From the NCBI GenBank assembly GCA_964016885.1, contig OZ024743.1, forward strand, positions 320,850,001 through 320,914,000: 64,000 nt of DNA, written 5' to 3'. This stretch comes from Eledone cirrhosa. Taxonomy: Eukaryota. The notes below the pieces were generated by a model, which worked only from the letters and a program-made list of their open reading frames with translations, ran no database searches and had not been told where the DNA came from. This document shows positions 3,061-59,638 of the stretch, piece by piece. How positions within the stretch are numbered: the first letter of the stretch is position 1; each line of letters starts with the position of its first letter. Position numbers and translations under genes: made by a program.

Positions 3061-3169
3061 GAGTTGCGACCGATAGATAGTACTAGCAACTGGAAAGACC
3101 GACGGAAACATTGTTTCCTCGGTCCGATTTGACGAAAGTCGATCGAAAAGGATATATATATATAGAGAG

Positions 3170-4052
3170 AGAGATATATATTTCTTTATTTGCCACAGGG
3201 GCGTACACAAATGGGACATTACAAGACGTGACGGCGGTGGTTTTACATAAAAATCATATAACTTTAACATTAATAAATAACAATAAACTATATATAATAA
3301 AATAACAATTGAAATCCCCATTCGGTTTTTTTTTTGGGGGGGGGGGACACGTTACTGTGGGGTTGTTTTACACCCCGTGGATAGAACAACCCTCAATACC
3401 AGGAACACGTTTTGTAGGTGTTCTCGTCTTCCTCAACCTACAGGTTTATATACAGAGAACGCCCATTCACTCGGGCCATTTTCGCCACATTCACCCCCCT
3501 TTCAACGAATTTACTGGGATGTAGCACATTCTCTCCACTCCCACCTTCCTTCTGAAGTGGTACTTAAAGAAGGGGATAAGTTGTTGTCCGGAGAGAAAGG
3601 TGTTTGCTCTCAGTCCTTTTAACCTCGTCCACCATATTACCTCTTTCGCCATAGCCACAGACAGAGGAAAACCGCCTCTCCTTCATTCTTGAATGAAGGC
3701 AGCGGGGTGATCCTCATGATGGACTCGACTGACAACTGGATGCGTCCCACGCGTGGCAGTAGCTGTTCGACATAATTCCATTGGTCAGTCACACCTGGGC
3801 ACTGAACAATTGCGTGCAGAACAGTTTCGAAGTCCTGCTCGCATCTTGGACAGGTCCTTTTGGCAGGATCTCTGCCAGGGCCTCCGTGCCTGTAGATTTT
3901 GTCTCGAACTGGTAGAGCTCCTCGGTAGCACTGCCAGGCCAGAGACCTCTGGAAGTTATCCATAGGCCCTGGACGGAAAGTCCTCCCAAACAGACTGGAC
4001 AGTTCGTCCTCCTCCATGCTTAGAGTTTCCACGACAACGACGTCACACTTAT
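3170..4052 (-). mobile_element. 5'-truncated Tx1-like LINE, family D (ORF2 C-terminus + 3' UTR)
   Basis: ORF 3637-4032 RSLAWQCYRGALPVRDK...CPRC...ETVLHAIVQC; 3' UTR matches 35918-36190. Confidence 0.9.
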
Positions 4053-4054
4053 AG

Positions 4055-4150
4055 AGATAGATAGATATATTTTTTTATTAGCCACAAGGGCGCACAAGAA
4101 ATATAAAATATAAAACCAAATATAAAATATAAAAACAAACAATTACAACA
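4055..4150 (-). mobile_element. Very short Tx1-like 3'-end fragment between (TATC)n tracts
   Basis: Minus strand ends TGCGCCCTTGTGGCTAATAAAAAAATATATCTATCTATC, the family A terminus. Confidence 0.7.
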
Positions 4151-5322
4151 GAGATAGATAGGTTTCTTTATTAGCCACAAGGGCGCAACAAGAAAAGGGC
4201 ACAATACAAAGACATGCCGGGGATTTTACATACAGTCGTGTAAAAAATATAAAAACAAACAATTTCAACAATCGAAATCCCCAATAGGGGGGAGGCGCCA
4301 CAAATGGGTTGTTTAATACACCGTCGATAGAACAACCCTCAACTCGAGGAGCGTGTTGTGCAAGTTCTCCTTTCTTCCTTTTGCTCTCTTCCTCAACCTA
4401 CAGGCTTATAAACAGAGAAGGCCCAATCACTCGGGCCATTTTCGCTTCATTCACCCACCTTTCAGTAAATTTACTGGGGTGCAGTGCCTCTCTCTCCACC
4501 CTGATTCTCCTTCTAAAGTGATACTTAAAGAAAGGAATCAATTGTTGTCCGGAGAGAAAGGCATCTGTCCTCAGTCCTCTCAACCTCGTCCACCATATAA
4601 CTTCTTTCACCATAGCCACCGTACAGAGGAAAACCGCCTCTCTTTCGTTTTTGAAAGAGTCTGGCGGTTTGATCCTTACTATGGACTCGGCAGTCAACTG
4701 GATTTGTCCCATACGCAACAGCAGTTCTTCTGCATAGTTCCACAGGTCGCTTACGCCCGGGCAGTGTACAATTGCGTGCAGAACTGTTTCAATGTCCTGC
4801 GCACATCTTGGACATGTCCTCTTGGAAGGATCCCTGCCAGGGCGTCCGTGCCTGTAGATCTTGTCACGAACCGGTAGAGCTCCTCGGTAGCAGTGCCAGG
4901 CCAGGGACCTCCGGAAGTTGTCCATAGGTCCCGGGCGGAAAGTCCTACCAAACAGACTGGTGAGCTCATCGTCTTCGACGCCCAGAGTCTCTCCGAGCAC
5001 GTCGTCGCCCTTGTAACGTACAATCCCTCTATAGAATGTCGAAGTGGAGTCTCCACTGATTGCTGCGCCCGCTTGCCAGAGGACTGTGAGCGCCTGAGCG
5101 CATTCAATGTGCCAGGCGCCCATCGTTTTCGGTCTTTTCTTCACCCAGGACTGCAGCTCCGTTAGCGAGACGAGATGTGGGAAAGCTTGTCTCACAAACG
5201 GTGCCCACACCGGTTGGGGGTCGGTGAGGAATACCTGGAGATGCCGCAGCCTCAGCGCATGTTTGCGCATCATCAGCCACGGCATTCCCAGCCCTCCGTT
5301 GGAAGGGTGCTGACAGCAGACG
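4151..5322 (-). mobile_element. 5'-truncated Tx1-like LINE, family A
   Basis: ORF 4398-5285 nearly identical to the last 295 aa of ORF2 at 27062-29752; 3' UTR near-identical; 5' junction follows TCTATC. Confidence 0.95.
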
Positions 5323-11960: not shown

Positions 11961-12021
11961 AAAAATATATATGAGTAAATAAATATATATACATATATAT
12001 ATGTACATATATATATATATG

Positions 12022-12070
<49 letters not shown>

Positions 12071-12360
12071 AAATAACGAAACGAAATTAAATTTCGTTTC
12101 GTTTGTAACTCACTTTTGTATGACTGACGCTTAAACAATTAAGTTAAAAAATGTACATCTACATATGCATACTGAAATACTAGTGTGCATATGAATACAC
12201 ACACGTATACATATGTAGATGTAACAAGTCTTTCACTGGTTACTTTACTGTGAGTAACCCAGCTATTCTGTATGTAAACACACAGACAAACCGGTTTTTA
12301 GAGTCATACTGGTTTTCGAGGAAACACCTTTCCTCTATTCTCCAGAAAGCCAGACAAGGA

Positions 12361-12403
12361 ATATTGAACTAGTTTCGTTGTTGTTACAACTCATCAGCAA
12401 TAT
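12361..12403 (-). ncRNA. Type-I minimal hammerhead ribozyme
   Basis: Reverse complement of 12721-12763. Confidence 0.9.
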
Positions 12404-12720
12404 TTACCTATCTACCGGCCTTTCTGGAGAATCGTAAAAGCACATATCGTTATATGCTTTTTCTATGAAAATTAGTAGTGGGCAGACCAATTTGCATAGA
12501 GTGTGAGTACGCACCGGTTCAGCGGAGACGATAAAAACAAATAACGAAACGAAATTAAATTTCGTTTCGTTTGTAACTCACTTTTGTATGACTGACGCTT
12601 AAACAATTAAGTTAAAAAATGTACATCTACATATGCATACTGAAATACTAGTGTGCATATGAATACATATATAACGATATGTGCTTTTACGATTCTCCAG
12701 AAAGGCCGGTAGATAGGTAA

Positions 12721-12763
12721 ATATTGCTGATGAGTTGTAACAACAACGAAACTAGTTCAATAT
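12721..12763 (+). ncRNA. Type-I minimal hammerhead ribozyme
   Basis: ATATTG-CTGATGA-GTTG TAACAA CAAC-GAAAC TA GTT-CAATAT; canonical core, 6-bp stem I. Confidence 0.9.
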
Positions 12764-12984
12764 TCCTTGTCTGGCTTTCTGGAGAATAGAGGAAAGGTGT
12801 TTCCTCGAAAACCAGTATGACTCTAAAAACCGGTTTGTCTGTGTGTTTACATACAGAATAGCTGGGTTACTCACAGTAAAGTAACCAGTGAAAGACTTGT
12901 TACATCTACATATGTATACGTGTGTGTATTCATATGCACACTAGTATTTCAGTATGCATATGTAGATGTACATTTTTTAACTTA

Positions 12985-13071
<87 letters not shown>

Positions 13072-16617: not shown

Positions 16618-16731
16618 CCCACTCTACTACCTCAAGTATTGAGTACTTTGGTGCGTTATGGTCCACCTGGTTCCTTACCACATTTCCTTCGTTATATATA
16701 TATATATATATTTATTAAAATAACAGATTAA

Positions 16732-16782
16732 AGTTTAAGCAAAGAATCGCTGCTTTCACCCTTAACGGGATCTTCTGAAACT
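16732..16782 (-). ncRNA. Hammerhead-like motif (CAGAAGA core)
   Basis: Inverted copy of 19281-19331. Confidence 0.6.
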
Positions 16783-19280
16783 TACAAAGTCAATCTGTAA
16801 ACGCAGAAGTGGATATTTCAAAAAACGTTGCAACCGGAGGAAGACAGGAAGACGATACTTTGGTTCGTGGAAACGTTCTCCGGCACAGAACGGGAAAAAA
16901 CGAATATAATACGTCATTAATAGGAGCGGTGAAAAACAATTACACGCAAAGACAGAACCACGTTTATGGTATAAAAGAGGTCGTAGACTAATGTTCTCTT
17001 AGGTGGTTCATAGAGACGTTCTCTGGCAATGAACGAAAAAAACGAAGATAATACGTCATATGTGGAGCGTGGAGAACAATAGCACGCAAAGACAAAACCA
17101 CGTAAATGGTATAGCAGAAGTAGTAGACTAACATTCTAACTAGGAGACCGAATGAATCTCCGCTATAGAGTTAAGAACAAAGTAAATAAATACAATACAG
17201 AAGTAATAGAAATAAATAAATACATACACGCAAACAAATACGTACATACACAAGCATACGCAAAACACTTACCATAGGTATACAAAACCACGCACATATA
17301 AATATGTGTGTGTGTGTGTGTATGCGTGTATACAAATAAATAAATAATTATATAAACGTATATAAATAAATAAATACGTATATAACAAGCGCACACACAT
17401 ACCCGCACACACATACCTACATGTAAATACACGAATGTTCGGAGACGTAAGTCAACCAAAACATGAAGTACACATATACACACACCCAACATACGTACGA
17501 ACCAGCATACTCACACAGACGCAAAACTCCTGTATACACAAAGCCAAACCATATGTACCAGAAAATATAAAATTATACGCCATATCATAAACAATCAAAT
17601 ATACGTACGAGAAGGTATACGTACCTTCACAAAACATACGGGTAATATATACTTACCTATGCAAATAAGTAAGCGTATAAACAACCATATACTTAGCTCC
17701 CACATCAAGACGTAAAATATCCACGTATAGATCGTACTATCCGTTAGGGTATAACGTGGGGCTGTAATACAGGAAAGTTTTGTGCAATTTATGTTTACAA
17801 GCCGAAATTGCATCAGATTTTTTGTTTAAGATGTAGTCTGTGGCGTAGAGTATTTCCAGGGCCTCAGCGGCGCAGAGGTCACATGGTCTTTTATTTCCAT
17901 TATACGATCTAGCCCTAGCTAGGATCTCCCAGTGTAACTTATATTGGGTGTGGTTGTCTTTTAGACTCCAGATATAAGCTGAAAGTGACGTCATATTCCT
18001 TCTTAGAGGGTAACGAAAAGAATGGGTATACATGTAAAGACGCTGCTTGAATCTATTGGCGGTTAACCCTATGTAGGCGCTACGGGACGTGGGTGTTACA
18101 ACTATATCTGGTGTCTAAAAGACAACCACACCCTATATAAGTTACACTGGCAGATCCTAGCTAGGGCTAGATCGTATAACGGAAATAAAAGACCATGTGA
18201 CCTCTGCGCCGCTGAGGCTCTGGAAATACTCTACGCCACAGACCACATCTTAAACCAAAAATCTGAGGCAATTTCGGCTTGTAAACATAAATTGCACAAA
18301 ACTCTTTCCTGTATTACAGCCCCACGTTATACCCTAACGGATAGTACGATTTATACATGGATATTTTACGTCTTGATGTGGGAGCTAAGTATATGTTTGT
18401 TTATACCATTACTTATTTGCATAGGTAAGCATATATTACCCGTATGTTTTGTGAAGGTACGTATACCTTCTCGTACGTATATTTGATTGTTTATGTTATG
18501 GCGTATAATTTTATATTTTCTGGTACATATGGTTTAGCCTTGTGTATACGGGAGTTTTGCGTCTGTGTGAGTATGCTGGTTCGTACGTATGTAGGGTGTG
18601 TGTATATGTGTACTTTATGTTTTGGTTGACTTACGTCGGCGAACATTCGTGTATTTACATGTAGGTATGTGTGTGCGCTTGTTATATACGTATTTATTTA
18701 TTTATATACGTTTATATAATTATTTATTTATTTGTATACACGCATACACACACACACATAATTATATGTGCATGGTTTTGTATACCTATGGTAAGTGTTT
18801 TGCGTATGCTTGTGTATGTACGTATTTGTTTGCGTGTATGTATTTATTTATTTCTATTACTTCTGTATTGTATTTATTTACTTTATTCTTAACTCTGTAG
18901 CGGAGATTCATTCGGTCTCCTAGTTAGAATTTTAGTCTACGACTTCTGCTATACCATTTACGTGGTTTTGTCTTTGCGTGCTATTGTTCTCCACGCTCCA
19001 CATATGACGTATTTTCTTCGTTTTTTTCGTTCATTGCCAGAGAACATCTCTATGAACCACCTAAGAGAACATTAGTCTACGACCTCTTTTATACCATAAA
19101 TATGGTTCTGTCTTTGCGTGTAATTGTTTTTCACCGCTCCTATTAATGACGTATTATATTCGTTTTTTCCCGTTCTGTGCCAGCGAACGTTTCCACGAAC
19201 CAAAGTATCGTCTTCCTGTCTTCTTCTGGTTGCAACATTTTTTGAAATATCCACTTCTGCGTTTACAGATTGACTTTGTT

Positions 19281-19331
19281 AGTTTCAGAAGATCCCGTTA
19301 AGGGTGAAAGCAGCGATTCTTTGCTTAAACT
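19281..19331 (+). ncRNA. Hammerhead-like motif (CAGAAGA core)
   Basis: AGTTT-CAGAAGA-TCCC GTTAA GGGT-GAA AGCA..TGCT T-AAACT; stems I-III pair. Confidence 0.6.
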
Positions 19332-19443
19332 TTAATCTGTTATTTTAATAAATATTTGCTCTACGGTTCTTATATATATATATATATATATATATATCCT
19401 TATCGAGCCCTCTTTGGATTTTAGTCTTCAAATTTATTATTAT

Positions 19444-24461: not shown

Positions 24462-24724
24462 ATATGTATACACGTCTGTATTTTAGAGGGACCATGCCAC
24501 CAAAAACCTTGTCAGAACAATGGAAGTTGTCATCCGTTTCTTTTGGGATATAGGTGCGTATGTAAAGACGGTGTCAGCGGAAAGAATTGCCAAACAAGTA
24601 AGTCACACTGTAAATGTAAACAAAATAAAAGTAATTTACAATAAACATTTGTATAATTTCAAAATTACATATATATTATATGAAAGCGTATATCTATCTA
24701 AACAACATCACACAAAAAAAGAAA

Positions 24725-26305
24725 ATGTCTTTTGCTGACACAGTCAACAAGAAACAAGATTTTATAAATCTTGATATCTCCAACGCAAGAGATATGCTCC
24801 AGCAAGGGAGAAAATTTGTAACTTTCGAAGAAAGAGGTGGGTTTAGAATTAACTCACCCCTTGAAATAAAGGAAGACACAAACCGCCGATCAGTCACTTT
24901 TAGGACTGTGTCAAATTCGTCAAGAAAACCGACATTTGTTAATCAGTCAGATATAGAAGATTCTTTCAAGGAGATTCTAGCAAATGTCGATTTTCTCCAG
25001 CGAGGAAAACAGTACGGAAGTGTTTCCGTACTGTTTAAAAGCGAGACACTGGCCCCAAAAAACTCTGTGACACCAATAGTGTCAAAAGCATACACCTTTT
25101 TCCCTACATACATGGGGAAAACGACACAAAAAATAAAAATAAAAAACATACCTCCAAGCATTAACATCTGGTGGATCTTGGCTGGCTTCGTAGAGCCAGA
25201 AACAGACATAATACTTTCGATACGAAAATCCATTCGACAAAGGTGGGCGGGCACCGATTTGGAGATTCTGTTGCAAATGAAAGCGGAGAGAATCTCCAAA
25301 ATACCCGAAAGAGTCGTTATTGATAATAACAACAAAATAAACATTTCGGTAGAAGGAAGAAAATTTCACTGCTTTCGCTGTGGTAGCACATCTCACCTAA
25401 AAGCCTCTTGTCCACAAACACACAACAGCAACATCATAAAAAAAACGCTATTACCAACACCAACACCAAAACAACCACCACCACCACCACAAGTACAACG
25501 ACAGACGAAACGAGCAACCACACCAAAACAAACAGACACTCAACCAACAACAACAGAAAAAACAGAGACAACACCCCTGAAGAACACATCCCCACTCCAT
25601 CCCACTCCATCAAACACTACCACAAACACACATACCGAAACACCACCACCACCACACAACATACCCTTACCCCACATACCTGACGATGATTATTCATCGA
25701 CGGATGAAGCTGCTTCTCCTTCTTTAAGTGAAGAAGAGGGAGAACCGCGGAAATCCAAAAAACAAAAAAAGAGACACCACAAAACCCCCAAAACTCCAAT
25801 CACCAACACCAACACACAACCACAGACACAAACAACAACACAAACAACACCACAGTCAAACACCCCCCTATCAGCAAACCCAGCACCAACACCACCCCAA
25901 ACACAAGCACCCACCATAAAAAGAAAACTCCCAGATGAACAACAAACTAAAACAATACAACAAAAACACAAACAACAATACGCATACATCAACACAAACA
26001 ACAAGAGTTTGATGGAGGTCATCTCCCAAAACCCCAAGGTGGAGACGGAGGGCAAAACTTTCGTCAAGGCAGAATCGTCTCCACACCTTAAACTTATAAG
26101 GGTTTCTATGGAAACCTATAAAGACCTGAAAATTAAATTTTCACAGGACGTGGGCAACGCCTGCCACAAACCCATCAACCGCGTCCTGTTGAAAGGTTTC
26201 CCCACCCCACCCAACACCCCATCCAGCACCCAAATGGAGATTGAACAACCCGATCTCCAGGTAAGTGCACCTTTCGTCCTTTTTCTCCAACTTTTCTTCA
26301 CCAAC
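24725..26305 (+). CDS. Tx1-like ORF1p (gag-like CCHC, Pro/Thr-rich), N-terminus probably truncated
   Basis: CFRCGSTSHLKASC; homologous to ORF1 at 30387; runs in frame into ORF2 without a stop. Confidence 0.85.
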
Positions 26306-29300
26306 ATGGCTGGTTTACGAGTTGGAACCGTGAATGTGCGTGGCCTAGGGATGCCCTGGAAACAGGGCCAACTTTTAAACGACCTTAGGTCACACAGTAT
26401 GGATGTGATAGCCATCACCGAGTCCAGAATCCACAACAGGCAGCAACTAACCCCCATCTTCGACGACTTTGAGATCTACGCATCTCTCTGTCAGCCAGGA
26501 GGTGGAGGTGGAGTGGCTGTTATGTTTCGGTAGAACCTGGACGTCGGAGTACAGCAAGTACACTTGGGCCCGGAGGGTAGACTGGTAGTCCTAGACGTGA
26601 ACAGTATCGGAGGTGGAGCCTTCAGACTGGTGGCCGTTTATGCCCCGACCGGGCAATCGCAATCACGGCCAGACTTCTTTAAGCGTCTAGAGTCTTTTCT
26701 GAAAACGTCTCGCTCCTTACTTTTAGTGGGGGACTGGAATGGTATCCTAGATGCACGATGGGACTATGTGGGAGCATGTCCCAGTAGAGCGGGGTGCAAC
26801 AGCCTCAAAACTTTAATCGGCCAATTACAACTGGCCGATAGGTATCGACTGGATTTCCCGACTGCACCACAGTGGACGTGGGTAAACCGCAGTGGGACAT
26901 CTAGATCGTATTTAGATAGGTTCTTCATTAGAGAAAGGGACAAGGATATGTTAAGCTGTCCACGAATGCACATGGTTGCCTATTCAGATCACAAGTTAGT
27001 CTTCTGCTTAGTCAACCGTGATAGAATACATAGACAGGGTCCCGGATAATGGAAGCTGAACGTGTCGTTGCCGGCACGTAAAGCTTACAGTGAACGGATA
27101 AGTAAACTAGTCAAGCAACAGTTAACGGGAGCCATCGTCAACAATAGATGGTGGTACTCTCTCAAGAAAGCAATTAGAATAGAATCGATAGGGTATAGCA
27201 GAGAGTTAGCCTTAGAGAAAAGCAGAATAGAAAGAGAACTAGTAGCCAAGTTAGAGGAGGCACTTAGAAGTGGCAACGCGGCTAGAGTGTTAGCGTCGAG
27301 AACGGCACTGGACCAGTTCTTCGATGCGAAACACGAAGGCTGCGTGGTCAGAAGCAAAACACGTGCTCTAGGAAACGAAGGAGCGAAAGCTGTCAGCTGG
27401 GCCCGAGTGGCGGAGGCAAAAAGTGGCAACAAGTCCACGATTCGGTCTTTGAAAGACCAAAACGGACGCGTGCTACTTGACCCCAAGCAAATGTGCGCGG
27501 CCTTTCAGCGGCACTTTGCGCGACTGTTTGAGCAGAACGACGGTGAGCCGAACGGGGCAATAGACTTTAGTTCATACCTCGACGGCCTGCCGCGTCTCTC
27601 GAACACGGACGCCGAGTTCTGCGAAAGACCGATCACGGACACTGAGATACGGGACGCTCTGGGCCGCTGCGGGAAACGCAAGTCACCCGGTCTAGATGGT
27701 CTACCCTACGAATTTTACATAGGCATGCCGGACTTGTTCTCTGGCGTCCTCGAAGCCGTCTACTGCAATTGGCAGCAGAACGGGAGAATTCCCAGTTCTG
27801 CAGGCAAGGGCGTAGTAACGCTGATCAGGAAAGACGAGAACAAGGGGGACGAAATTAACAACTTCAGGCCCATAACTCTGCTCAACACAGAGTTAAAGAT
27901 TTTGGCCAAGGTGCTAGCGACGAGGTTGGCGCTTGTCGTCGAGAACCTGGTAGGGAAAGCGCAAACGTGTGCAATCCCGACCAGGTCCATACACGACAAC
28001 CTCCACCTCATGCGATACATCATAGAGAGGGTGGGTAGTAAACCCGGCTTCGGTGGGGCTCTGATCAACTTGGATCAGTCTAAGGCATTCGATAGGGTCG
28101 ACCATCGATACTTGGAAGCGGTTCTCAAGGCGGCCGGTTTCGGTCCCGTGTTCAGAGGATGGATCGAGGCGATGCACACCAGCATCTGCTCGAGGGTCAA
28201 GGTGAACGGCTACCTATCGGAGCCGTTCGCAATCACGCGTTCCATTCGACAGGGATGCCCTCTCTCCTCCATTCTGTATGTATTGACTCTTGAGCCACTA
28301 CTGCGGAAATTGGAGCTGTTGCAGGGCATCCCCCTAGAACCGGGACTGCGCAAAGCGGCGTCGGCTTATGCCGACGACGTGACAGTAATGGTGTCGAGCA
28401 CCTCGGAAATCGGGGTGATCGGCAACATACTGAAAGAATACGAAACGCTGACGGGAGCAAAACTAAACCCAGACAAGTCTGTCGGTTTGCAACTCGGTAC
28501 GTGGAGAGGCAAACCGATGACATCGGACAGCGTCGTTGGACGCTGGACGGACGGACCGGTGAAATTGCTCGGGGTCTGGTTCGGTCCAGACCTCCAGGTG
28601 GAGAAAAACTGGAACGAGGTCACGGCCAAGGTGTTTGCACTCACTCAGAAGTGGGCAGAGTGCAAACTGTCCTTGAAAGGTCGAGCGGAGGTGGCGAACA
28701 CTATCATAGCGTCCGTCATCTACTACCGCTTGACTGTCGTGCCTTGTCCCCGTGAACACCTCGCCAAGATGGAACGCATGCTCTTCCAGTTTCTGTGGAA
28801 GAAGCAGGCTCCGCTGGTGAGGAGATCCGTCTGCTGTCAGCACCCTTCCAACGGAGGGCTGGGAATGCCGTGGCTGATGATGCGCAAACATGCGCTGAGG
28901 CTGCGGCATCTCCAGGTATTCCTCACCGACCCCCAACCGGTGTGGGCACCGTTTGTGAGACAGGCTTTCCCACAGCTCGTCTCGCTAACGGAGCTGCAGT
29001 CCTGGGTGAAGAAAAGACCGAAAACGATGGGCGCCTGGCACATTGAATGCGCTCAGGCGCTCACAGTCCTCTGGCAAGCGGGCGCAGCAATCAGTGGAGA
29101 CTCCACTTCGACATTCTATAGAGGGATTGTACGTTACAAGGGCGACGACGTGCTCGGAGAGACTCTGGGCGTCGAAGACGATGAGCTCACCAGTATGTTT
29201 GGTAGGACTTTCCGCCCGGGACCTATGGACAACTTCCAGAGGTCCCTGGCCTGGCAGTGCTACCGAGGAGCTCTACCGGTTCGTGACAAGATCTACAGGC

Positions 29301-29752
29301 ACGGACGCCCTGGCAGGGATCCTTCCAAGAGGACGTGTCCAAGATGTGCGCAGGACATTGAAACAGTTCTGCACGCAATTGTACACTGCCCGGGCGTAAG
29401 CGACCTGTGGAACTATGCAGAACAACTGCTGTCGCGTATGGGACAAATACAGTTGACTGCCGAGTCCATAGTAAGGATCAAACCGCCAGACTCTTTCAAA
29501 AACGAAAGAGAGGCGGTTTTCCTCTGTACGGTGGCTATGGTGAAAGAAGTTATATGGTGGACGAGGTTGAGAGGACTGAGGACAGATGCCTTTCTCTCCG
29601 GACAACAATTGATTCCATTCTTTAAGTATCACTTTAGAAGGAGAATCAGGGTGGAGAGGGAGGCACTGCACCCCAGTAAATTTACTGAAAGGTGGGTGAA
29701 TGAAGCGAAAATGGCCCGAGTGATTGGGCCTTCTCTGTTTATAAGCCTGTAG
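26306..29752 (+). pseudogene. Tx1-like ORF2p (APE endonuclease, RT, CCHC) with two in-frame stops
   Basis: NVRGL, ITE, VYAP, GDWN, YLDR, YSDH; PGLDG, KAFDRVDH, RQGCPLS, YADD; stops at 26531 (TAG) and 27047 (TAA, aligned to TAC in family C). Confidence 0.95.
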
Positions 29753-29988
29753 GTTGAGGAAGAGAGCAAAAGGAAGAAAGGAGCACTTGCACAACACGCT
29801 CCTTGAGTTGAGGGTTGTTCTATCGACGGGGTATTAAACAACCCATTTGTGGCGCCTCCCCCCTATTGGGGATTTCGATTGTTGAAATTGTTTGTTTTTA
29901 TATTTTTTAGACGACTGTATGTAAAATCCCCGGCATGTCTTTGTATTGTCCCCTTTCTTGTTGCGCCCTTGTGGCTAATAAAGAAATA

Positions 29989-30018
<30 letters not shown>

Positions 30019-30019
<1 letters not shown>

Positions 30020-30140
30020 TTCTTATTTTATTTTTATATTTTGTTATTGCCTCCTCCTTATTGAGGACGCCTTTTTGTGTAAACTCCCCCCTTTGTACTT
30101 GTCCCACTTTTGATGCCCTAGTGGCAAATAAAAGAAACAT
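30019..30140 (+). mobile_element. Short Tx1-like 3'-end fragment, family B
   Basis: TGTAAACTCCCCC..TGTCCC..TGCCCTAGTGGCAAATAAAAGAAA between two (TATC)n tracts. Confidence 0.75.
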
Positions 30141-30143
30141 ATC

Positions 30144-30174
<31 letters not shown>

Positions 30175-30386
30175 CTATCTATCTTGATAGAGTAAGACAC
30201 GCTTCGCATCGGCTCCGCTATTCCATCGGGATTTACCCTTACTATTGTAAGTACCGGATAAATTTTTTAGTGCAACACATTTGGAACACTAACCCCTGTT
30301 ATTTAGGGAAACATTTATGCATTTACCCCCTTTTTAGGGGGCAAAATAAATATCTATTTTTGCCGAAAAATTTCTTTCTTGGCAGC

Positions 30387-32225
30387 ATGGCGGAAAAGAT
30401 GGCAGACATGTCTGCCATTAGCTCTGCCACGCCCCCCAAGTCTGAAGAACAAAAAATAATTACAACAAAATTAGACATTGAAACAAACAAACAAAATGAA
30501 AAAACAAATGTTAAGGAAAATGAGCAAACAGAAAACAAACAAACAGAAAATAATACAAATAACGACAGGGCAACTTTCGCCCAGAAAACAAAACAATCCA
30601 TTACATACACACCAATTGACCTAACTGCCGCCAGAGAAAAACTGGCCGAAGCAAAGAAACACATTGTTTTGGGGGAGAACGGAATGTTTTCCATTAACTC
30701 CCCCCCAGAATTCAAGAAAGCCAGAGCAGAAAACACAGTTATATACAGAACTATACTGAACCAGTCAAGAAAGCCAGCACAGCCCAGCCAAATGGAAATA
30801 GAGTTAGTCCTAAAAGACTATATGAAGAATATTCTCTTCATACGAAAGGACCGACTCTATGGCAGCATTTCGGTCCTAACAAGAGACAAAGAAACGGCGG
30901 AGAAGCTTTCCCTAAGCCCACTCTCGTCGACAACATATAGCTTCTATCCCTCCTACATGGGTAGAAGAACACAGAGAGTAAAAGTAAAAACAATGCTGCC
31001 CACAATGGACTTCTGGTGGGCTATTGCTGGCTTCATTGATATGGGCGAAGACACAATGCTGTCAATGGGGAAGGCAACTGGAGATGCGTTCCTGGGAATG
31101 GGCCTCGACATACTAGTCCAAATGAGGCCCGAAAGAATAGCACAAATCCCGGATCGCATCTGGCTGGATGACCTTACCCCAATAGACATAATTGTAGAGG
31201 GGAGAAGACCAGCATGCTATTTATGCATGGAAAGGGGACACGTTAAGGCTAACTGCCCGAAACGTATCCCCCAAAAAGGACTATTGCCCACACCCACCAC
31301 AAACAGTACACCAACACCACCCACCTCCAAAAATACACTAATACCACACACAGCAAACAAAATACAGACACCACCAACCACAAACACAACACAAACATCA
31401 CCACCACCAGCACCAAACACAAGCACGACACAAAAATCACCACCACCAACCACAACACAAACATCACCACCACCATCACCAACCACAAGCACGACACAAA
31501 CATTACCACCACCACCACAAAACCCATTCCAAACAAATAATTAAAAAAACAGTAACAAATCTACCCCTCCCGCAAAAAAAAAACAACCACGCAACACGTC
31601 CCTCCCACCTAGCGCTGAAGAGTTTCCCCCAACTTCTGAAGAAGAAGGAGGAGAAGCCTTCAGACAAGTTAAAAGAAAAAAAAGAAAACACACACCCAGC
31701 ACACCACAAATAACCCACACACAAACACCAACTCCAATCAAAAACACCCCACCCTCAACAAACAAAAATAAATCTGCGCCTCCCCTCTCCGAAACATTGA
31801 CAGCATCACAAAAAAAGACGTTGCAATACACATATATAAATAAAGAAAACAAAAAACTGGTTAAATTAATAAACAATAACCCTATGGTGCAGACCGAAGG
31901 GCCAAACTTTATCTCAACAGAGAACTTCACCCATTTAAAAATGATAAAGGTCCCTCTGGACCTTTATCGTTCCTTAAAAGAACAATTTAGACGGGACGTG
32001 AGCCCCCCCCCCCCCTGTTTAAAACCGTTGAATCGCGTCCTCTTGAAAGATTTCCCCATAACCGCCCCTCTCCCTGACACAACTCCAAATACCCCAACCC
32101 CACCACACACGTGTACCCCCACACCACCACAAAACATCCCTCCACCCAACACACCTGATGCCATGGAAATTACGCAACCCGGAGAGGTAAGTGCTTTTCT
32201 TTCTTCACTTTCAACACCAAAATAG
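30387..32225 (+). pseudogene. Tx1-like ORF1p, reading frame broken in the A-rich region near 31545
   Basis: CYLCMERGHVKANC; C-terminal part 31797-32225 aligns with family A (Y.YIN..NK..ETEG..F..HLK.I.V..NRVLLK.FP..MEI.QP). Confidence 0.85.
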
Positions 32226-35200
32226 ATCAATTGAGAGTTGGCTGTTTGAACGCGCGTGGCCTGGGCTCAGCTTGGAAGCAAGCAAAGCTTCTAAGTGACC
32301 TCAGGTCACAAAGTATAGATGTGATGGTTGTTTGCGAGAGTCGGATCAGCAGCGTGAGACAGCTGGCGCCCGCCTTCGATGACTTTGAGATGCACGCATC
32401 TCTCTGTCAACCCGGAGGCGGGGGGGGGGGGGGCGGGAGTTGCCGTACTGCTGGATAAACGTCTGACTCTCGACGTACAGATTGTTCACTCGGACCCGGG
32501 GGGTCGATTACTGGTGCTGGACGTCGGAGGCGGTGAAGGCGGGGCTTTCAGACTGGTCGGTCTTTATGCTCCCTTCGGGGCGGAAAGAGCCGACTTCTTC
32601 CAGCGTCTGGAGACTTTTCTAGGAACGTCGCGTTCCCTGCTTTTAGTGGGGGACTGGAATGGAATCCTAGATGCGCGTTGGGACTATGCAGGGGCATGTC
32701 CCGATAGAGGGGGGTGTAGCAGCCTCAAGGGGTTACTCGATCGATTCGACCTGGTCGATAGATTTCGACTAGATTGTCCAACTGCGCCAACCTGGACCTG
32801 GGCAAACCGCAGTGGACAATCTAGATCGTACCTAGATAGGTTTTTGGTTAGGAGTAAGGATAGGGACGTATTTAGTTGTCCAGAACTGATCATGGTTGGC
32901 TATTCAGATCACAAATTAGTGACCTGCGTGGTCAACCTTGATAGAACGCATAGACAGGGTCCCGGTTACTGGAAGATGAACTTGTCCTTACCGACAAAGA
33001 AAGATTACAGAAACCGGATTAGTAGCTTAGTTAAGATGCGGTTGACGAGAGCGATCGTCAACAGTAGGTGGTGGATATCTCTAAAGAGAGAGATTAGAGT
33101 AAGTTCGATAGGTTACAGTAAGGAACTAGCGGCGAATAGAAATAGGAGGGAAAGGGAGTTAACAGATAAACTAGAAGAGGCGATTAGGAGCGGAGACGTA
33201 GCCAGAGTGTTAGCGACGAGAACGGCATTGAGCCAGTTCTTTGACGCGAAGCACGAAGGCTGCGTTGTCCGAAGTAAAATACGTGCTTTAGGAAACGAGG
33301 GGACCAAAGCTGTTAGCTGGGCCCGCGTGACAGAAGCCAAGAGTGGGATTAAATCCACCATTCGGTCTTTGCGAGACCAGGATGGACGGGTGATCCTTGA
33401 ACCTGAGCGAATGTGCGAGACCTTTCAACGGCACTTTGCTCGACTGTTCGGAGGTGGCGGGGGGCCGGACGGGGATGTGGACTTCGGTCCATACCTCGAC
33501 GGTCTACCGCGTCTTTCGAGCGGCGAAGCGGAGTGCTGCGAAAGGCCAATCACAGCCACTGAAATCGGGGAAGCGCTCAGCCAATGCAGCAGACGCAAAT
33601 CCCCGGGTCTCGATGGTCTACCATACGAACTTTATTTAGCTATGCCGGTCTTGTTCTCCGAACTCCTCGAGGCTGTCTATTGCAACTGGCAACAGAACGG
33701 GAGAATTCCCTGTTCTGTGACCAAGGGCGTGGTCACGCTAGTGAGGAAGGACGAGAGCAAGGGGGACGACTTAAGTAACTTTAGGCCCATAACTCTGCTG
33801 AATGCAGAGTTACAGATTTTGGCCAAGGTGTTGGCGAAGAGGTTGGCGCTTGTGGTGGGTGGTTTGGTGGGAGACGCGCAGACATGCGCTATCCCGTCCA
33901 GGTCCATTCACGACAACCTCCACCTCATGCGATACATCATAGAGAGGGTTGGCTACGAACCCGGCTTTGGTGGGGCCCTGATCAACTTGGATCAATCTAA
34001 GGCGTTCGATAGGGTCGACCATGGTTACCTGGATGCGGTGCTAGCGGCGGCGGGCTTCGGACCCGTTTTCAGGGGCTGGATTTCTGCCATGCACAGTGGC
34101 AACATCTACTCTAGGATTAAAGTAAACGGCTACCTCTCGGAGCCGTTTCAAATCACCCGATCCATCAGACAGGGGTGCCCCCTCTCCTCCCTTCTGTACG
34201 TATTGACTCTCGAGCCACTGCTGCGGAAGTTGGAGTTGCTGCGGGGCATACCCCTGGAACCGGGATTGCACAAAGCGGTCTCGGCCTATGCCAACGACGT
34301 AACATTAATGGTGGCGGACGCCTCGGAAATCGGGGCGATCGCCACCCTACTGGAGGAATACGAAAGGCTGACGGGGGCTAAGCTGAACCAGGACAAGTCA
34401 GTCGGTTTGCAACTCGGAACGTGGAGGGGCAAACCGATGCCGTTAGACGGTGTCGTCGGGCGGTGGACGGAGGGCCCGGTGAAGCTGCTCGGGGTCTGGT
34501 TCGGACCGGACCTCCAGGTGGAGAAGAATTGGGGCGAGGTGACGAGCAGGGTGTTTGCGCTGACCCAGAAGTGGGCCAAGTGCAAACTATCACTGAAAGG
34601 TCGGGCGGAGGTGACGAACGCTTACATAGCGTCCGTCATCTACTACCGCCTGACCGTCGTGCCTTGCCCCAAGGAAAAGCTCACCATCATGGAACGCATG
34701 CTCTTCCAGTTCCTCTGGAAGAAGCGGCCTCCCATGGTGAGGAGATCCATCTGCTGCCAGCACCCTTCGAAAGGAGGGCTGGGTATGCCGTGGCTGTTGA
34801 TGCGTAGACACGCATTGAGGCTACGGCATCTACAGGTATTCCTCAACGGTCAGCCGGTGTGGGCCCCGTTTGTGAGGCGAGCCTTCCCACAGCTCGTCTC
34901 GCTCACCGAACTGCAATCCTGGGTGAAGCAAAGACCGAGAAAACTGGGCAACTGGCACACCGAGTGTGCCCAGGCGCTCACGGCTATCTGGCAAGCGGAC
35001 CCGACTGTCAGTGGAGAATCCACCTCGACATTCTATAGAGGGTTGTGGGCTAGCAGGGGCGACGACACCCTTGGAGAGTCGCTAGGCATGGAGGAGGACG
35101 AACTGGCCAGCCTGTTCGGTAGAACTTTCGGCCCGGGACCCATGGACAACTTCCAGAGGTCCCTAGCCTGGCAGTGTTACCGGGGGGCTCTGCCCGTTCG

Positions 35201-35669
35201 AGAAAAGCTCTACAGACACGGGCGCCCGGGCAGGGATCCCGCGAAAAAGATCTGTCCCAGATGCGTGCGCGACGAGGAAACCGTTGCGCATGCACTGGTA
35301 CACTGCCCGGGCGTTGCCGATCTGTGGGGCTACGTCGAACGACTGCTGTCGCGTGTGGCGCCGATTCGATTAACCGCCGAGTCTGTGGTGAACATCAAGC
35401 CACCTCCTCCCTTCAGAAATGAAGCAGAGGCGGTCTTTCTGTGCGTAATAGCCATGATGAAAGAGGTTGTGTGGTGGACGCGCCTGAAAGGTCTGAGGTC
35501 GGGTGACTTTCTCACCGGCCATCACCTGGTTTACTTCTTCCGATACCACTTCGGAAGAAGAATCAGGATGGAGAGAGAAGTGCTTGGTCCCAGACAGTTT
35601 TATGAAAGGTGGGTGAAAGAAGCGAGAATGGCCCGTGTAAATGGGCCTTCTCTCTACATTGTTCTGTAG
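32222..35669 (+). pseudogene. Tx1-like ORF2p with start ATG>ATA, frameshift in G-run at about 32425, RT YADD>YAND
   Basis: ORFs 32231-32458 and 32379-35669 together give the full APE-RT-Zn protein. Confidence 0.95.
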
Positions 35670-35917
35670 GTGAAGAAGTGAAGAGGAAAGGGGGAGCGCC
35701 TCCTCTCTGGGCTTCCCCCGCGAAAAGAGTTGCACACTTTTCGGGGGTATGTGCAATCCCCAACACGCCCCCTCCCTTTTGAGGACTTTTTATTGTTATA
35801 TTATTATTGTTATTCCTTTTTTCTTTACTCGATTTATGTAAACTCCCCCACTGTGTAAATGTCCCCTTCTTTTGTGCCCTCGTGGCAAATAAATAGAAAT
35901 TTATCTATCTATCTCTA

Positions 35918-36192
35918 TCTTCTCTGTATATAAACCTCTAGGTTGAGGAAGATAAACAGAGGGAAGACGGGAACACCTACAAAACGTGTTCCTGGTGTTG
36001 GAGGTTGTTCTATACACGGGGTGTAAAACAACCCCGCAGGAACGTTCCCCCTTTTGGGGATTTCGATTGTTTTATTTTATATATAGTCTATTGTTATTCA
36101 TCATTGTTAAAGATTTTATGTAAAACACCCGCCGTCACTTCTTGTAATGTCCCATTTTTGTACGCTCTTATGGCAAATAAAGAAAGATATCT
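35918..36192 (+). mobile_element. Tx1-like 3'-end fragment, family D
   Basis: Starts in the last ORF2 codons (CTCTGTATATAAACCTCTAG); homologous to 3170-3460. Confidence 0.85.
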
Positions 36193-36439
36193 ATACATAC
36201 ATATATATATATAATTATATCTTTTTCTCCCTATATATATATATAGAGAGAGAGAGATTTAGCGTTACCAATGTAGACTAGTATGACCATATTCAGCTAA
36301 GCACTCGATACTTGGGAAAGTAGAGTGGATGTATTGTAAATAGATAGTGTCCGGCATGGTACTAGCTAGCACCGACGTAATATACATAATATACGAAGGA
36401 GGGGACGTAAAACGTATAAAAATGATATCGTATAATAAT

Positions 36440-55663: not shown

Positions 55664-55907
<244 letters not shown>

Positions 55908-56144
55908 TATTTAGAAACACACAGATACATGCGGACACACACATATATACATGAATGCATCCGCACCCAACTGTGAGTTAAGGGTGCCAACTTCACCGAT
56001 GTTGCTCAATGAATGACCGGGACAGACCAATTCAGTTTGAACCAGACTGAACCAGTATCAGAGTTAAAAATACATTATGAAGAGAGAAGAAACATTTAGA
56101 TATAATTAGTAATAAAATGTATCATACCTAAACTGTTCCTAAGT

Positions 56145-56232
56145 TCCTCGACTACGTAGTTTCGTGGCATAAACAAAAACAATATATCAAAGATATAGAG
56201 TCCTTGCGAGGTCTGCCGACTTATCAAGAGGA
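56145..56232 (-). ncRNA. Type-I hammerhead ribozyme, U3-A8 core
   Basis: TCCTC-TTGATAA-GTCGGCA...TGCCAC-GAAAC TACGTA GTC-GAGGA. Confidence 0.85.
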
Positions 56233-56735
56233 TACCTCATTTTACTAGTCTCAAGAACGCGTCTACACGACGTGAGAAAGAATCCCAAAAGGCGGAGGGG
56301 GAGATAGTCACGCGATATAACGGTCGAGAAACAGAGCTAAGCCTCTTATAACCACGAAGAAAATACCACGGAGGCGGAGGGGGTATTCATATCGAGGCCG
56401 TAGAAGAGGTAGTGAAGAAGGCGAGAAGTATGAGTAATGGAAGCTTTCCAGTTGTCCCCACACTTCAAAGATTGCTCGACCAGAGGGAGTTATTAATATA
56501 TTTAGAAACACACAGATACATGCGGACACACACATATATACATGAATGCATCCGCACCCAACTGTGAGTTAAGGGTGCCAACTTCACCGATGTTGCTCAA
56601 TGAATGACCGGGACAGACCAATTCAGTTTGAACCAGACTGAACCAGTATCAGAGTTAAAAATACATTATGAAGAGAGAAGAAACATTTAGATATAATTAG
56701 TAATAAAATGTATCATACCTAAACTGTTCCTAAGT

Positions 56736-56823
56736 TCCTCGACTACGTAGTTTCGTGGCATAAACAAAAACAATATATCAAAGATATAGAGTCCTTGCGA
56801 GGTCTGCCGACTTATCAAGAGGA
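56736..56823 (-). ncRNA. Type-I hammerhead ribozyme, U3-A8 core (second unit)
   Basis: Same motif 591 bp downstream. Confidence 0.85.
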
Positions 56824-57125
56824 TACCTCATTTTACTAGTCTCAAGAACGCGTCTACACGACGTGAGAAAGAATCGCAAAGGGCGGAGGGGGAGATAGTC
56901 ACGCGATATAACGGTCGAGAAACAGAGCTAAGCCTCTTATAACCACGAAGAAAATACCACGGAGGCGGAGGGGGTATTCATATCGAGGCCGTAGAAGAGG
57001 TAGTGAAGAAGGCGAGAAGTATGAGTAATGGAAGCTTTCCAGTTGTCCCCACACTTCAAAGATTGCTCGACCAGAGGGAGTTATTAATATATTTAGAAAC
57101 ACACAGATACATGCGGACACAATAT

Positions 57126-57364
<239 letters not shown>

Positions 57365-57443
57365 ATTCCGGGTTGAATCGGAGGTAACCACAGTAAGTAA
57401 GGTACTCAATACATAGCAGAGTATAAAAGTTTTAATGTAGATG

Positions 57444-57494
57444 AGATTCTACAGGACTAGAACTGTTTCATTCATTAGAAATCATCAGGAATCT
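57444..57494 (-). ncRNA. Type-I hammerhead ribozyme
   Basis: Inverted copy of 59545-59595. Confidence 0.88.
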
Positions 57495-58083
57495 GGGTAT
57501 CAAAAAATAAATATGGTATTTATATGTCTCTACAAGTGGTAGGAGAGGGTGGGGAGTGGGATGGGTGCAGGTCATTGGTTGACAGAAAAGGGAATTCATT
57601 AAAAGCTAATTCTACAAACCTATAGTTTATTTTTATTTATTTATGTTTTTAGAGTAACAAGGGCAGACAGAATTCTATAAACAGGTTCCGGATGGCATAC
57701 CATTCCTTGTCATTAAGTTTCTCTTAAGCTAACAGGTGTCTATAAAATCAGTGGGGGGTCAGTCATGGTCGATAGAATTAAAGAAAAGGGAGATTCTTTA
57801 AAAGCTAAAGTCATTAAGGTTCTACTAAGTGACAAAGGTCTAGAGAATTCTGCAGACAGATTCAAAATACTGAGTGCATATCTTACTATTATCTTCGAAC
57901 TTCTCTTAAACTAATCAACTATATGCCAAAAATCAACAGACACGTTCACAAAAAAACAAAAAACCACATACTCACTCACACACTTACGCGCAACCATAAA
58001 CACACACACAAACACATATACACACATAAAAACACACACACATATATAAAAATATATATTCATGTACACACACATACATACAC

Positions 58084-58174
<91 letters not shown>

Positions 58175-58306
58175 TATATACACATATATACACACACACA
58201 TATATATATATACACATACACACACACATACACATACATACACATATATACACAAATACATATAGACATATATGCATACACATACACAGACACATATACA
58301 CACACT

Positions 58307-58367
<61 letters not shown>

Positions 58368-58423
58368 ACACATACATACATACACATACATATATACACA
58401 CACATACGCATACATATATATAC

Positions 58424-58456
<33 letters not shown>

Positions 58457-58486
58457 CATATATATATACGTACACACATATACATG

Positions 58487-58518
<32 letters not shown>

Positions 58519-58635
58519 AAAACCCCATACACACACATATATATACATATACACACACATACACACAAACACACACACACATATATATACACATATACAT
58601 ATATATATACATTCATATATTGTGTATGTGTGTAT

Positions 58636-58680
<45 letters not shown>

Positions 58681-58878
58681 TGTGTGTATATGTGTCTGTG
58701 TATGTGTATGTATATATGTCTATATGTATTTGTGTGTATATGTATACACATGTATATTTGTGTTTGTATGTATGCGTGTGAGTGTATTTATTTGTGTATA
58801 TATGTGTGTGTGTGTGTATGTATGTGTATGTGTGTATGTGTATATATATATATGTGTGTGTGTATATATGTGTATATA

Positions 58879-58952
<74 letters not shown>

Positions 58953-59544
58953 TGTGTGTATGTATGTGTGTGTACATGAATATATATTTTTATATATGTG
59001 TGTGTGTTTTTATGTGTGTATATGTGTTTGTGTGTGTGTTTATGGTTGCGCGTAAGTGTGTGAGTGAGTATGTGGTTTTTTGTTTTTTTGTGAACGTGTC
59101 TGTTGATTTTTGGCATATAGTTGATTAGTTTAAGAGAAGTTCGAAGATAATAGTAAGATATGCACTCAGTATTTTGAATCTGTCTGCAGAATTCTCTAGA
59201 CCTTTGTCACTTAGTAGAACCTTAATGACTTTAGCTTTTAAAGAATCTCCCTTTTCTTTAATTCTATCGACCATGACTGACTCCCCACTGATTTTATAGA
59301 CACCTGTTAGCTTAAGAGAAACTTAATGACAAGGAATGGTATGCCATCCGGAACCTGTTTATAGAATTCTGTCTGCCCTTGTTACTCTAAAAACATAAAT
59401 AAATAAAAATAAACTATAGGTTTGTAGAATTAGCTTTTAATGAATTCCCTTTTCTATCAACCAATGACCTGCACCCATCCCACTCCCCACCCTCTCCTAC
59501 CACTTGTAGAGACCTATAAATACCATATTTATTTTTTGATACCC

Positions 59545-59595: not shown

Positions 59596-59607
59596 CATCT
59601 ATATTAA

Positions 59608-59638
<31 letters not shown>

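What the first reader, a model, noticed from the sequence alone, without database searches (positions are those of the whole stretch)
26255..35700. ORF2 of Tx1-like LINEs may lie entirely inside a conserved GT-AG intron
Seen: two divergent families carry a perfect donor at the same phase-0 position at the end of ORF1 (CAG|GTAAGT at 26261; GAG|GTAAGT at 32187), followed by a pyrimidine tract and the ORF2 start. ORF1 has no conserved stop: it is fused in frame to ORF2 in A and out of frame in C. All five copies that retain the ORF2 stop have a TAG in acceptor context: TTCTCTGTTTATAAGCCTGTAG|GT (29752, 4398), TTCTCTCTACATTGTTCTGTAG|GT (35669), AACCTGTAG|GT (about 3438) and AACCTCTAG|GT (35941). 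Splicing 26261-29752 would end ORF1p with VEEESKRKKG, which is NLS-like. Inference: a spliced subgenomic ORF1 mRNA could set the ORF1p:ORF2p ratio, as copia-type LTR elements do for gag. I do not know this arrangement for Tx1 LINEs. Caveat: in C the spliced tail is only VKK*, unless one base was lost, since EEVKRKGG lies in an adjacent frame.
Basis: partly seen in the sequence, partly recalled or inferred. Interest (0 to 1): 0.85.

Follow-up and report, generated by a model that had tools for sequence, protein, structure and literature searches.

The report
LINE RNA zipper hides splice donor
A large group of jumping genes keeps a splice-start signal at the end of its first gene and two complementary stretches at either end of its reverse-transcriptase gene; these are predicted to zip the RNA into a 3.4-kb loop that likely hides that gene's start and likely stops it being cut out, rather than making it a routine intron.

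Summary
Window copy A has lost 11 bases; in 29 of 29 other copies ORF1 ends at a TAA inside the donor, so there is no fusion and no VEEESKRKKG tail.

The donor is real and selected. It is present in 20 of 20 subfamilies (down to 57% identity), in all three ORF1 phases, and is the best U1 match of the element in 15 of 20.

The acceptor is weak. A family with 5,556 matching ends uses TAA. No spliced copy was found (0 against 453 and 377 unspliced); 5 of 18 families were probed from the donor side.

In 18 of 18 families the stretch from donor to ORF2 start is complementary to the ORF2 stop and next 40-50 nt (predicted -37 to -61 kcal/mol). This accounts for the TAG|GT bases and would mask the AUG, the acceptor and part of the donor.

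Best reading: a fold-back zipper plus a U1 site, mostly unspliced (0.5); regulated ORF2 splicing 0.3. No RNA data. The scan reported these features before on other pieces of this genome, and the zipper lead came from there.

The parts
24701..26260 (+). Family A ORF1, 5'-truncated in this copy; one CCHC knuckle and a Pro/Thr-rich middle; 11 family bases missing just before 26261
26258..26266 (+). Splice-donor-like (U1-complementary) site of A; in the family it contains the ORF1 stop TAA (phase 2)
26261..26311 (+). 5' arm of the predicted zipper of A: donor, pyrimidine spacer, ORF2 ATG at 26306
   Evidence: 42 pairs, -53.6 kcal/mol
26306..29752 (+). Family A ORF2 (AP endonuclease, RT, zf-RVT); premature stops at 26531-26533 and 27047-27049 in this copy
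29744..29790 (+). 3' arm of the predicted zipper of A: last ORF2 codons, TAG (29750-29752), purine tract, anti-donor
29753..30020 (+). 3' UTR of A, AATAAA at 29977-29982, (TATC)n tail
30387..32225 (+). Family C ORF1 (premature stop 31542-31544 in this copy); ends at TAG 32223-32225, 36 nt past the donor
32184..32192 (+). Splice-donor-like site of C (phase 0; GTAAGT in 27 and GTAGGT in 3 of 30 copies)
32179..32231 (+). 5' arm of the predicted zipper of C; ORF2 begins at ATA 32222-32224, overlapping the ORF1 stop
   Evidence: 43 pairs, -53.3 kcal/mol
32222..35669 (+). Family C ORF2; frameshift in a G run near 32420-32440 in this copy
35658..35710 (+). 3' arm of the predicted zipper of C, TAG at 35667-35669
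35670..35920 (+). 3' UTR of C, AATAAA at 35888-35893, (TATC)n tail
35920..36213 (+). Short 3'-end fragment of a related family (TAG ends at 35941)
4105..5322 (-). 5'-truncated family A copy (TAG ends at 4398)
3145..4053 (-). 5'-truncated copy of a related family (TAG ends at 3438)

Best explanation
These L1/Tx1-type LINEs keep a conserved splice-donor motif at the ORF1 stop and two complementary arms at either end of ORF2; the arms are predicted to zip the RNA so that ORF2 becomes a 3.4-kb loop, which likely masks the ORF2 start, the would-be acceptor and part of the donor, so the RNA likely stays unspliced. Shown: the donor, the complementarity, its family-specific match, and the absence of spliced genomic copies in the families probed. 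Inferred, untested: (1) U1 snRNP binds the donor while ORF2 is being transcribed and does a non-splicing job, such as holding off early poly(A) sites; (2) once the 3' UTR is made, the zipper closes and competes with U1 and with acceptor recognition; (3) in the cytoplasm the fold-back puts the ORF1 stop about 160-225 nt from the poly(A) signal instead of about 3.7 kb, which would shield the two-ORF RNA from nonsense-mediated decay; (4) ORF2 is translated rarely, when a ribosome finishing ORF1 opens the outer end of the helix and restarts.
For: Duplex in 18 of 18 families, -37 to -61 kcal/mol, z -2.6 to -6.8 against shuffled partners; better than every other 75-nt window of the same ORF2 in 16 of 18; own partner ranks first in 7 and in the top two in 11 of 18; 0 of 20,000 label permutations reach the summed energy. 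Sense strand more stable than antisense in 16 of 18, mean 7.3 kcal/mol against 3.2 for shuffled partners. The G of TAG, the two bases after it and the synonymous G at -4 pair with bases before the AUG (16, 14, 12 and 16 of 17 families), with double changes such as G:C to A:T and A:T to G:C. The long-range pairing beats local folding by 21-24 kcal/mol for both window copies. It is kept in the TAA family (-40.8). Donor: 0-2 tree changes at 7 of the 8 positions from -2 to +6, against a median of 4 at 49 fourfold sites and 4-11 in the flanks; phases 0, 1 and 2; bases +2 and +3 are paired in only 9 and 7 of 18 predicted duplexes, so the zipper does not explain the donor. No ORF1-to-3'UTR copy. Fold-back suppresses decay in human reporters (PMC2689704, passages). 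U1 at a retroelement donor suppresses early termination (PMC5580714, passages).
Against: No RNA evidence of any kind; pairing over 3.4 kb is only predicted, and the full RNA was not folded. Co-evolution on 9 independent sister pairs is 6 of 9 (p 0.25): four pairs favour own partners by 9-25 kcal/mol and five differ by 2 or less. The permutation test overstates because kin share sequence. ORF2 holds an AATAAA in only 4 of 18 families, so classic downstream protection by U1 has little to protect; 12 of 18 have one within 500 nt upstream of the donor instead. A stop follows the TAG in the donor's own phase more often than permuted (p 0.02-0.12), which fits splicing. The decay, translation and U1 steps rest on analogy.
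Confidence: 0.5

Rival explanations
1. ORF2 is a regulated intron: a minority of transcripts splice from the ORF1-end donor to the ORF2 stop (or to an AG 7 nt earlier) and give an ORF1-only mRNA, and the zipper sets the ratio by masking the sites.
For: Selected donor in all phases. 11 of 17 TAG families meet a stop within 3 codons of the junction in their own phase (permutation p 0.02); 5 of 5 phase-1 families do so within 1 codon; only 27 of 513 AG-by-phase cases in the 3' UTR do. The phase-2 families A, c6, c10 and c12a that miss have an AG 7 nt upstream that gives a two-residue tail. Copia precedent (PMC5580714, passages).
Against: TAA family with 5,556 ends keeps the donor. The phase test falls to p 0.12-0.32 on 11 collapsed lineages, and the stop after TAG pairs with the spacer. 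TAG shows 2 tree changes, like synonymous purine sites (0-3, n = 8). It is the top-scoring AG in 2 of 15 (home-made score). The zipper pairs intron start with exon 2, an inhibitory geometry (inference). 0 spliced copies against 453 and 377 unspliced junctions and 1,246 3' ends, though an RNA without ORF2 would need help in trans.
Confidence: 0.3
2. Only the zipper and the two stop codons are selected; the donor is a by-product of a TAA/TAG/TGA stop lying in a paired, purine-rich context.
For: In most subfamilies the stop supplies bases +2 to +4, and the variants GTAAGT, GTAGGT, GTGAGT are the three stops. The region is one arm of the duplex. 0 of 7 distant metagenome relatives have a donor of 8/9 or better near the ORF2 start.
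Against: Seven representatives in which the stop has moved keep -1, +1, +2, +4, +5 and +6 unchanged while only 11 of 44 fourfold sites are invariant among them. The partner strand varies while the donor does not, and the core is bulged in about half the duplexes. Best U1 match among 157-315 GT sites in 15 of 20.
Confidence: 0.13
3. The complementarity is a DNA-level relic (inverted copying during reverse transcription) or plain pyrimidine/purine composition, with no RNA role.
For: One arm is pyrimidine-rich and the other purine-rich; shuffled partners still give -24 to -37 kcal/mol. Sister families swap partners at little cost in 5 of 9 pairs.
Against: Negative z in all 18; register fixed on the AUG and the stop; 86 G:U among 767 pairs; sense bias above the shuffled level; kept between clades about 60-65% identical.
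Confidence: 0.07

Closest known systems
Tx1-clade microsatellite-targeting LINEs (Kibi, Koshi; PMC4494074, passages) and the L1-Tx1 families counted in Octopus vulgaris (PMC13282606, passages)
   Same: Two ORFs, AP endonuclease, RT and a cysteine motif; copies end in and cluster at a microsatellite, here (TATC)n.
   Different: The passages seen report no splice site or long-range pairing. Placement in the clade was not tested by a tree with named members.
Ty1/copia subgenomic gag splicing (Drosophila copia, BARE1, Arabidopsis EVD; PMC5580714, passages)
   Same: A conserved U1-type donor at the end of the structural-protein region; a stop soon after the would-be junction; U1 there also blocks early termination.
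   Different: Copia has one long ORF and needs splicing to end gag; here ORF1 has its own stop. Spliced RNA is shown there and not here.
Human L1 splicing and SpIREs (PMC5860796, passages)
   Same: LINE RNA with splice sites whose use would damage the element.
   Different: SpIREs are about 2% of full-length L1 copies and keep ORF2; no copy joining ORF1 to the 3' UTR was found here.
Engineered 3'-UTR fold-back that suppresses nonsense-mediated decay (PMC2689704, passages)
   Same: A duplex from just after a stop codon to near the poly(A) signal shortens the physical 3' UTR.
   Different: Those are human reporters with a 20-30 nt arm beside the poly(A) signal; here the arm is natural, about 45 nt, about 190 nt from the signal, and untested.
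ORF2 translation by termination-reinitiation in L1 and SART1 (review PMC5972666, passages)
   Same: Two-ORF RNA with a short spacer; SART1 needs an RNA structure downstream of the stop-start site.
   Different: The review describes no pairing with the far end of ORF2.

Membership tests
L1/Tx1-type non-LTR retrotransposon | ORF2 with N-terminal AP endonuclease, RT and C-terminal cysteine motif | tested here: met
   PF03372, PF00078 and zf-RVT (the last below its cut-off)
L1/Tx1-type non-LTR retrotransposon | Separate upstream ORF1 with a nucleic-acid-binding motif | tested here: met
   CCHC knuckle seen in both translations; no Pfam hit; own stop in the family
L1/Tx1-type non-LTR retrotransposon | No LTRs, 5' truncation, 3' end at a poly(A) signal with a simple-repeat tail | tested here: met
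   against 17
Tx1 clade | RT phylogeny groups with named Tx1 elements | not tested
Tx1 clade | Target-sequence preference | tested here: inconclusive
   (TATC)n tails and head-to-tail clusters; tail and target not separated, target-site duplications not examined
Spliceosomal intron / copia-type subgenomic RNA | Conserved 5' splice site | tested here: met
Spliceosomal intron / copia-type subgenomic RNA | Conserved 3' splice site beyond other constraints | tested here: not met
   TAA family; conservation like synonymous sites; bases accounted for by pairing
Spliceosomal intron / copia-type subgenomic RNA | Junction restores a sensible frame | tested here: inconclusive
   p 0.02-0.12 on 17 families, 0.12-0.32 on 11 lineages
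Spliceosomal intron / copia-type subgenomic RNA | Spliced RNA observed | not testable with these tools
   No RNA holder listed
SpIRE-type spliced retrocopy | Genomic copies lacking exactly the intron | tested here: not met
   0 of 33 atypical hits join ORF1 to the 3' UTR; 0
Conserved long-range RNA duplex | Complementarity above chance, with compensatory changes | tested here: met
   independent-pair test only 6 of 9
Conserved long-range RNA duplex | Pairing shown in RNA | not testable with these tools
   needs probing or crosslinking

The most novel reading that the evidence does not exclude
A LINE lineage has evolved a splice-or-zip switch. U1 marks the ORF1 stop, and a 45-base-pair zipper made 3.4 kb later decides between excising the whole of ORF2 (ORF1-only mRNA) and a looped, decay-resistant genomic RNA whose ORF2 start is unlocked only by ribosomes finishing ORF1. 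It would be a natural fold-back answer to how a two-ORF LINE RNA escapes decay and rations ORF2p, combined with copia-like subgenomic splicing.
Probability: 0.25. Interest if true: 0.85.

Novelty: new variant of a known kind. Interest (0 to 1): 0.62.

Why it matters
How LINE RNAs with a stop codon 3-4 kb from their tail avoid decay, and how they keep ORF2p scarce, are open questions (background knowledge). Here twenty natural subfamilies mark out, base by base, a U1-type site and a long-range helix that begins at the ORF1 stop and covers the ORF2 start and stop. That gives ready-made compensatory tests in a two-ORF reporter. If ORF2 is also spliced out, it would be a subgenomic RNA of a kind I did not find described for LINEs in six full-text searches. 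Those searches cover open-licence papers only; Repbase reports, subscription journals and supplements were not seen.

Tried and rejected
RNA: no RNA holder listed. Three contig runs of unrecorded kind were laid on copy A; 15 of 289 joints were shown and none lies at the donor or the TAG, which says nothing either way.

Spliced copies: exact junction for A, 0. Donor followed by anything else: 13, 4, 0, 6, 0 and 3 hits for six motifs covering A, c3/c6/c10, c1, c9/c14, C and c2. Acceptor preceded by anything else: 3 and 4 hits. All 33 were read: small indels, truncations, one unrelated match, and one 128-nt jump into ORF2. Limits: the patterns are exact; the filter cannot see junctions whose second exon has G at its fifth base (the c3 and c16/c18 TAG type); c4, c11, c12, c13, c15, c16, c17 and c18 were not probed from the donor side; denominators exist only for A and C.

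Rejected: ORF1-ORF2 fusion and the NLS-like tail (a deletion in this copy). A conserved micro-intron in the spacer (AG before the AUG only in c12, c18 and c15). A conserved in-frame fusion splice (three different donor phases).

Reach: a 40%-identical outside relative as query found only the same lineage among the 30 of 150 hits examined; 24 of those 30 keep the donor at 8/9 or better. DNA of the 40% relatives could not be fetched. Of 16 metagenome loci at about 26-48% identity, 7 with an ORF2 start were read and none has the donor; 4 ends were read: 2 TAG, 2 TGA, and a fifth TAA.

Dropped rows: L174 (donor deleted) from the donor counts; L182 and L188 (end misplaced by the script) from the 3' counts; c5 and c7 have no mapped end and are not among the 18; c19 was merged with A; family C was left out of the gap-free pair table because its register is shifted.
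Full report
WHAT IS THERE. The region holds two near-full LINE copies head to tail (A, 24701-30020; C, to about 35920) and three 3' fragments. ORF2 carries AP endonuclease, RT and zf-RVT domains; ORF1 has a CCHC knuckle. Copies end in AATAAA plus (TATC)n. The window lies in a 3.0-Gb genome; I take the host for an octopus from recalled likeness of nearby repeats, untested. A degenerate motif at the ORF2 start has 13,491 matches. I fetched 60 of the first 100 listed, all on contig C1 and chosen to cover motif variants. With two A copies they form 20 clusters at 93% identity, down to 57% between clusters.

CORRECTING THE OBSERVATION. The quoted motifs are present. But copy A has lost 11 bases just before the donor; 29 of 29 other copies have them, and ORF1 then ends ETKR-stop with TAA inside GTAAGT. 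So ORF1 has a stop, is not fused, and the donor is phase 2. Family C is phase 0, with the stop 36 nt on, in 30 of 30 copies. Across clusters the donor is phase 2 in most, phase 1 in c4, c9, c13, c14 and part of c12, and phase 0 in C and one single copy. The NLS-like tail is an accident of this copy.

THE DONOR IS SELECTED. In 61 copies, -2 to +6 read A 57, G 59, G 60, T 60, purine 61, purine 61, G 60, T 61. Tree changes are 0-2 at these positions (5 at +4, all A/G), against a median of 4 at 49 fourfold sites and 4-11 in the flanks. The position was found by best match, so I ran a null: 22 of 2,418 other windows reach 8/9, against 19 of 20 representatives. It is the best U1-complementary GT site of the sense strand in 15 of 20 (U1 end and consensus recalled). 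A stop codon explains three of its bases in phase 2. In seven representatives where the stop has moved, six positions are still invariant while 11 of 44 fourfold sites are. One of the six is the first base of the new stop in phase 1, and the date of the phase shifts is unknown. The distance to the AUG varies from 25 to 52 nt. Seven distant relatives lack the motif, so it looks specific to this lineage.

THE ACCEPTOR IS WEAK. Cluster 2 ends ORF2 in TAA, has 5,556 matching ends against 1,246 for the A-type pattern, and keeps the donor. TAG shows 2 changes, like synonymous purine sites, and tops a home-made acceptor score in 2 of 15. For splicing: 11 of 17 TAG families meet a stop within three codons in the donor's own phase (p 0.02; within one codon 10 of 17, p 0.03; at once 8 of 17, p 0.12), and four phase-2 families that miss have an AG 7 nt upstream giving a two-residue tail. 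On 11 collapsed lineages p is 0.12-0.32.

NO SPLICED COPIES. Exact junction for A: 0 against 453 unspliced. C: 0 atypical against 377. All 33 atypical hits from eight searches were read, and none joins ORF1 to the 3' UTR. One copy, L158, jumps 128 nt from the donor position to an AG inside ORF2, one G short of an exact splice; a deletion fits as well. An RNA without ORF2 would have to be copied in trans, so this lowers but does not exclude splicing. No RNA run was available.

THE ZIPPER. In 18 of 18 families the stretch from 8 nt before the donor to just past the AUG pairs with the last ORF2 codons, the stop and the next 35-50 nt: -37 to -61 kcal/mol, z -2.6 to -6.8, and better than all other 75-nt windows of ORF2 in 16 of 18. 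Own partners beat foreign ones (rank 1 in 7, top two in 11; 0 of 20,000 permutations, inflated by kinship). On nine sister pairs the result is 6 of 9, p 0.25, with four large gains and no large loss. The sense strand is favoured in 16 of 18, by 7.3 kcal/mol against 3.2 for shuffles, as expected for selection on RNA. The helix accounts for the 'acceptor': the synonymous G at -4, the G of TAG and the next two bases pair with bases before the AUG, with some double changes. The purine tract after the stop faces the pyrimidine spacer, and an anti-donor faces the donor fully in some families. In about half, the donor core is bulged, and its partner varies while the donor does not, so the donor has a constraint of its own. 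In the window the arms are 26261-26311 with 29744-29790 and 32179-32231 with 35658-35710; co-folding gains 21 and 24 kcal/mol over local folds.

HOW IT MOST LIKELY WORKS. Shown: donor, arms, geometry. Inferred: the helix pairs the would-be intron start with the would-be second exon and covers the AG, which should hinder splicing. Its outer end sits at the ORF1 stop and leaves 161-224 nt to the poly(A) signal instead of about 3.7 kb (17 of 18 families). In human reporters such a fold-back suppresses nonsense-mediated decay (PMC2689704, passages). Its inner end buries the ORF2 start, which would ration ORF2p in a termination-reinitiation scheme like that proposed for L1 and SART1 (PMC5972666, passages). 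The donor is free until the 3' UTR is made, so U1 could bind and act without splicing, as at the EVD donor (PMC5580714, passages). Its target is unclear: AATAAA lies inside ORF2 in 4 of 18 families but within 500 nt upstream in 12. I put this reading at 0.5, regulated splicing of ORF2 at 0.3, donor as by-product at 0.13, and no RNA role at 0.07.

COMPARISON AND NOVELTY. The element is an L1/Tx1-type LINE; Tx1 membership in the strict sense was not tested by tree. It resembles microsatellite-targeting Kibi and Koshi (PMC4494074, passages), and recent L1-Tx1 families are counted in O. vulgaris without mention of introns or splicing in the main text (PMC13282606, passages). It might work like copia subgenomic splicing but fails the conserved-acceptor test, and no spliced product is seen. 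It differs from SpIREs (PMC5860796, passages). Six searches of the open library (listings only) showed no report of this donor or of ORF2-spanning pairing in a LINE; supplements, Repbase and subscription papers were not seen. Five earlier notes of this scan describe the same lineage on other pieces of this genome; they are not independent support. Verdict: a real, lineage-wide RNA feature and a new variant of a known element; the intron claim is unproven and is the second-best reading. Interest 0.62.

Noticed in passing
window 32222-32225; L031-L060, L186: Family C starts ORF2 at ATA, overlapping the ORF1 stop, in 30 of 30 near-identical copies; L186 has an open 1,146-codon ORF2 from there and the zipper is kept in a shifted register. 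Suggests non-AUG initiation or copying in trans in a young family (377 exact matches).
   Followed up: partly
L158 (G000:C2:135302702): Family-A-type copy that jumps about 128 nt from the donor position to just after an AG in the ORF2 5' part; one G short of an exact splice; splice and microhomology deletion cannot be told apart.
   Followed up: partly
L151-L153: Three A copies lack the 7 nt between the upstream AG and the TAG at the ORF2 end.
   Followed up: partly
L132, L147, L149, L136 spacers: In c12, c18 and c15 the pyrimidine spacer ends in an AG just before the AUG context, giving a micro-intron-like stretch of about 35-50 nt that the other families lack.
   Followed up: partly
L143, L118: Copies whose 5' end belongs to one family and 3' end to another (c4 with c2; c3 with a c6-type end): recombination between families, which blurs donor-acceptor phase tests.
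   Followed up: no
G000:C1:4225343-4255759: Six copies with near-identical ORF2-start motifs head to tail at about 5.7-7 kb spacing; different families also stack in the same (TATC)n sites.
   Followed up: no
ORF1, 130-500 nt before the donor: AATAAA in 12 of 18 families, against 4 of 18 anywhere in ORF2: candidate early poly(A) sites near the U1 site.
   Followed up: partly
P0002-P0028: ORF2 relatives at about 40% identity in large unnamed clusters (732, 435 and 352 members); some run 10-20 residues past the position of this stop. Their DNA would show how old donor and zipper are.
   Followed up: no
window 16708-19355, 57422-59617, 12009-13065, 55900-57131: Three long self-inverted stretches (80-93% identity) and a 640-nt direct duplication at 99%; content not examined.
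   Followed up: no
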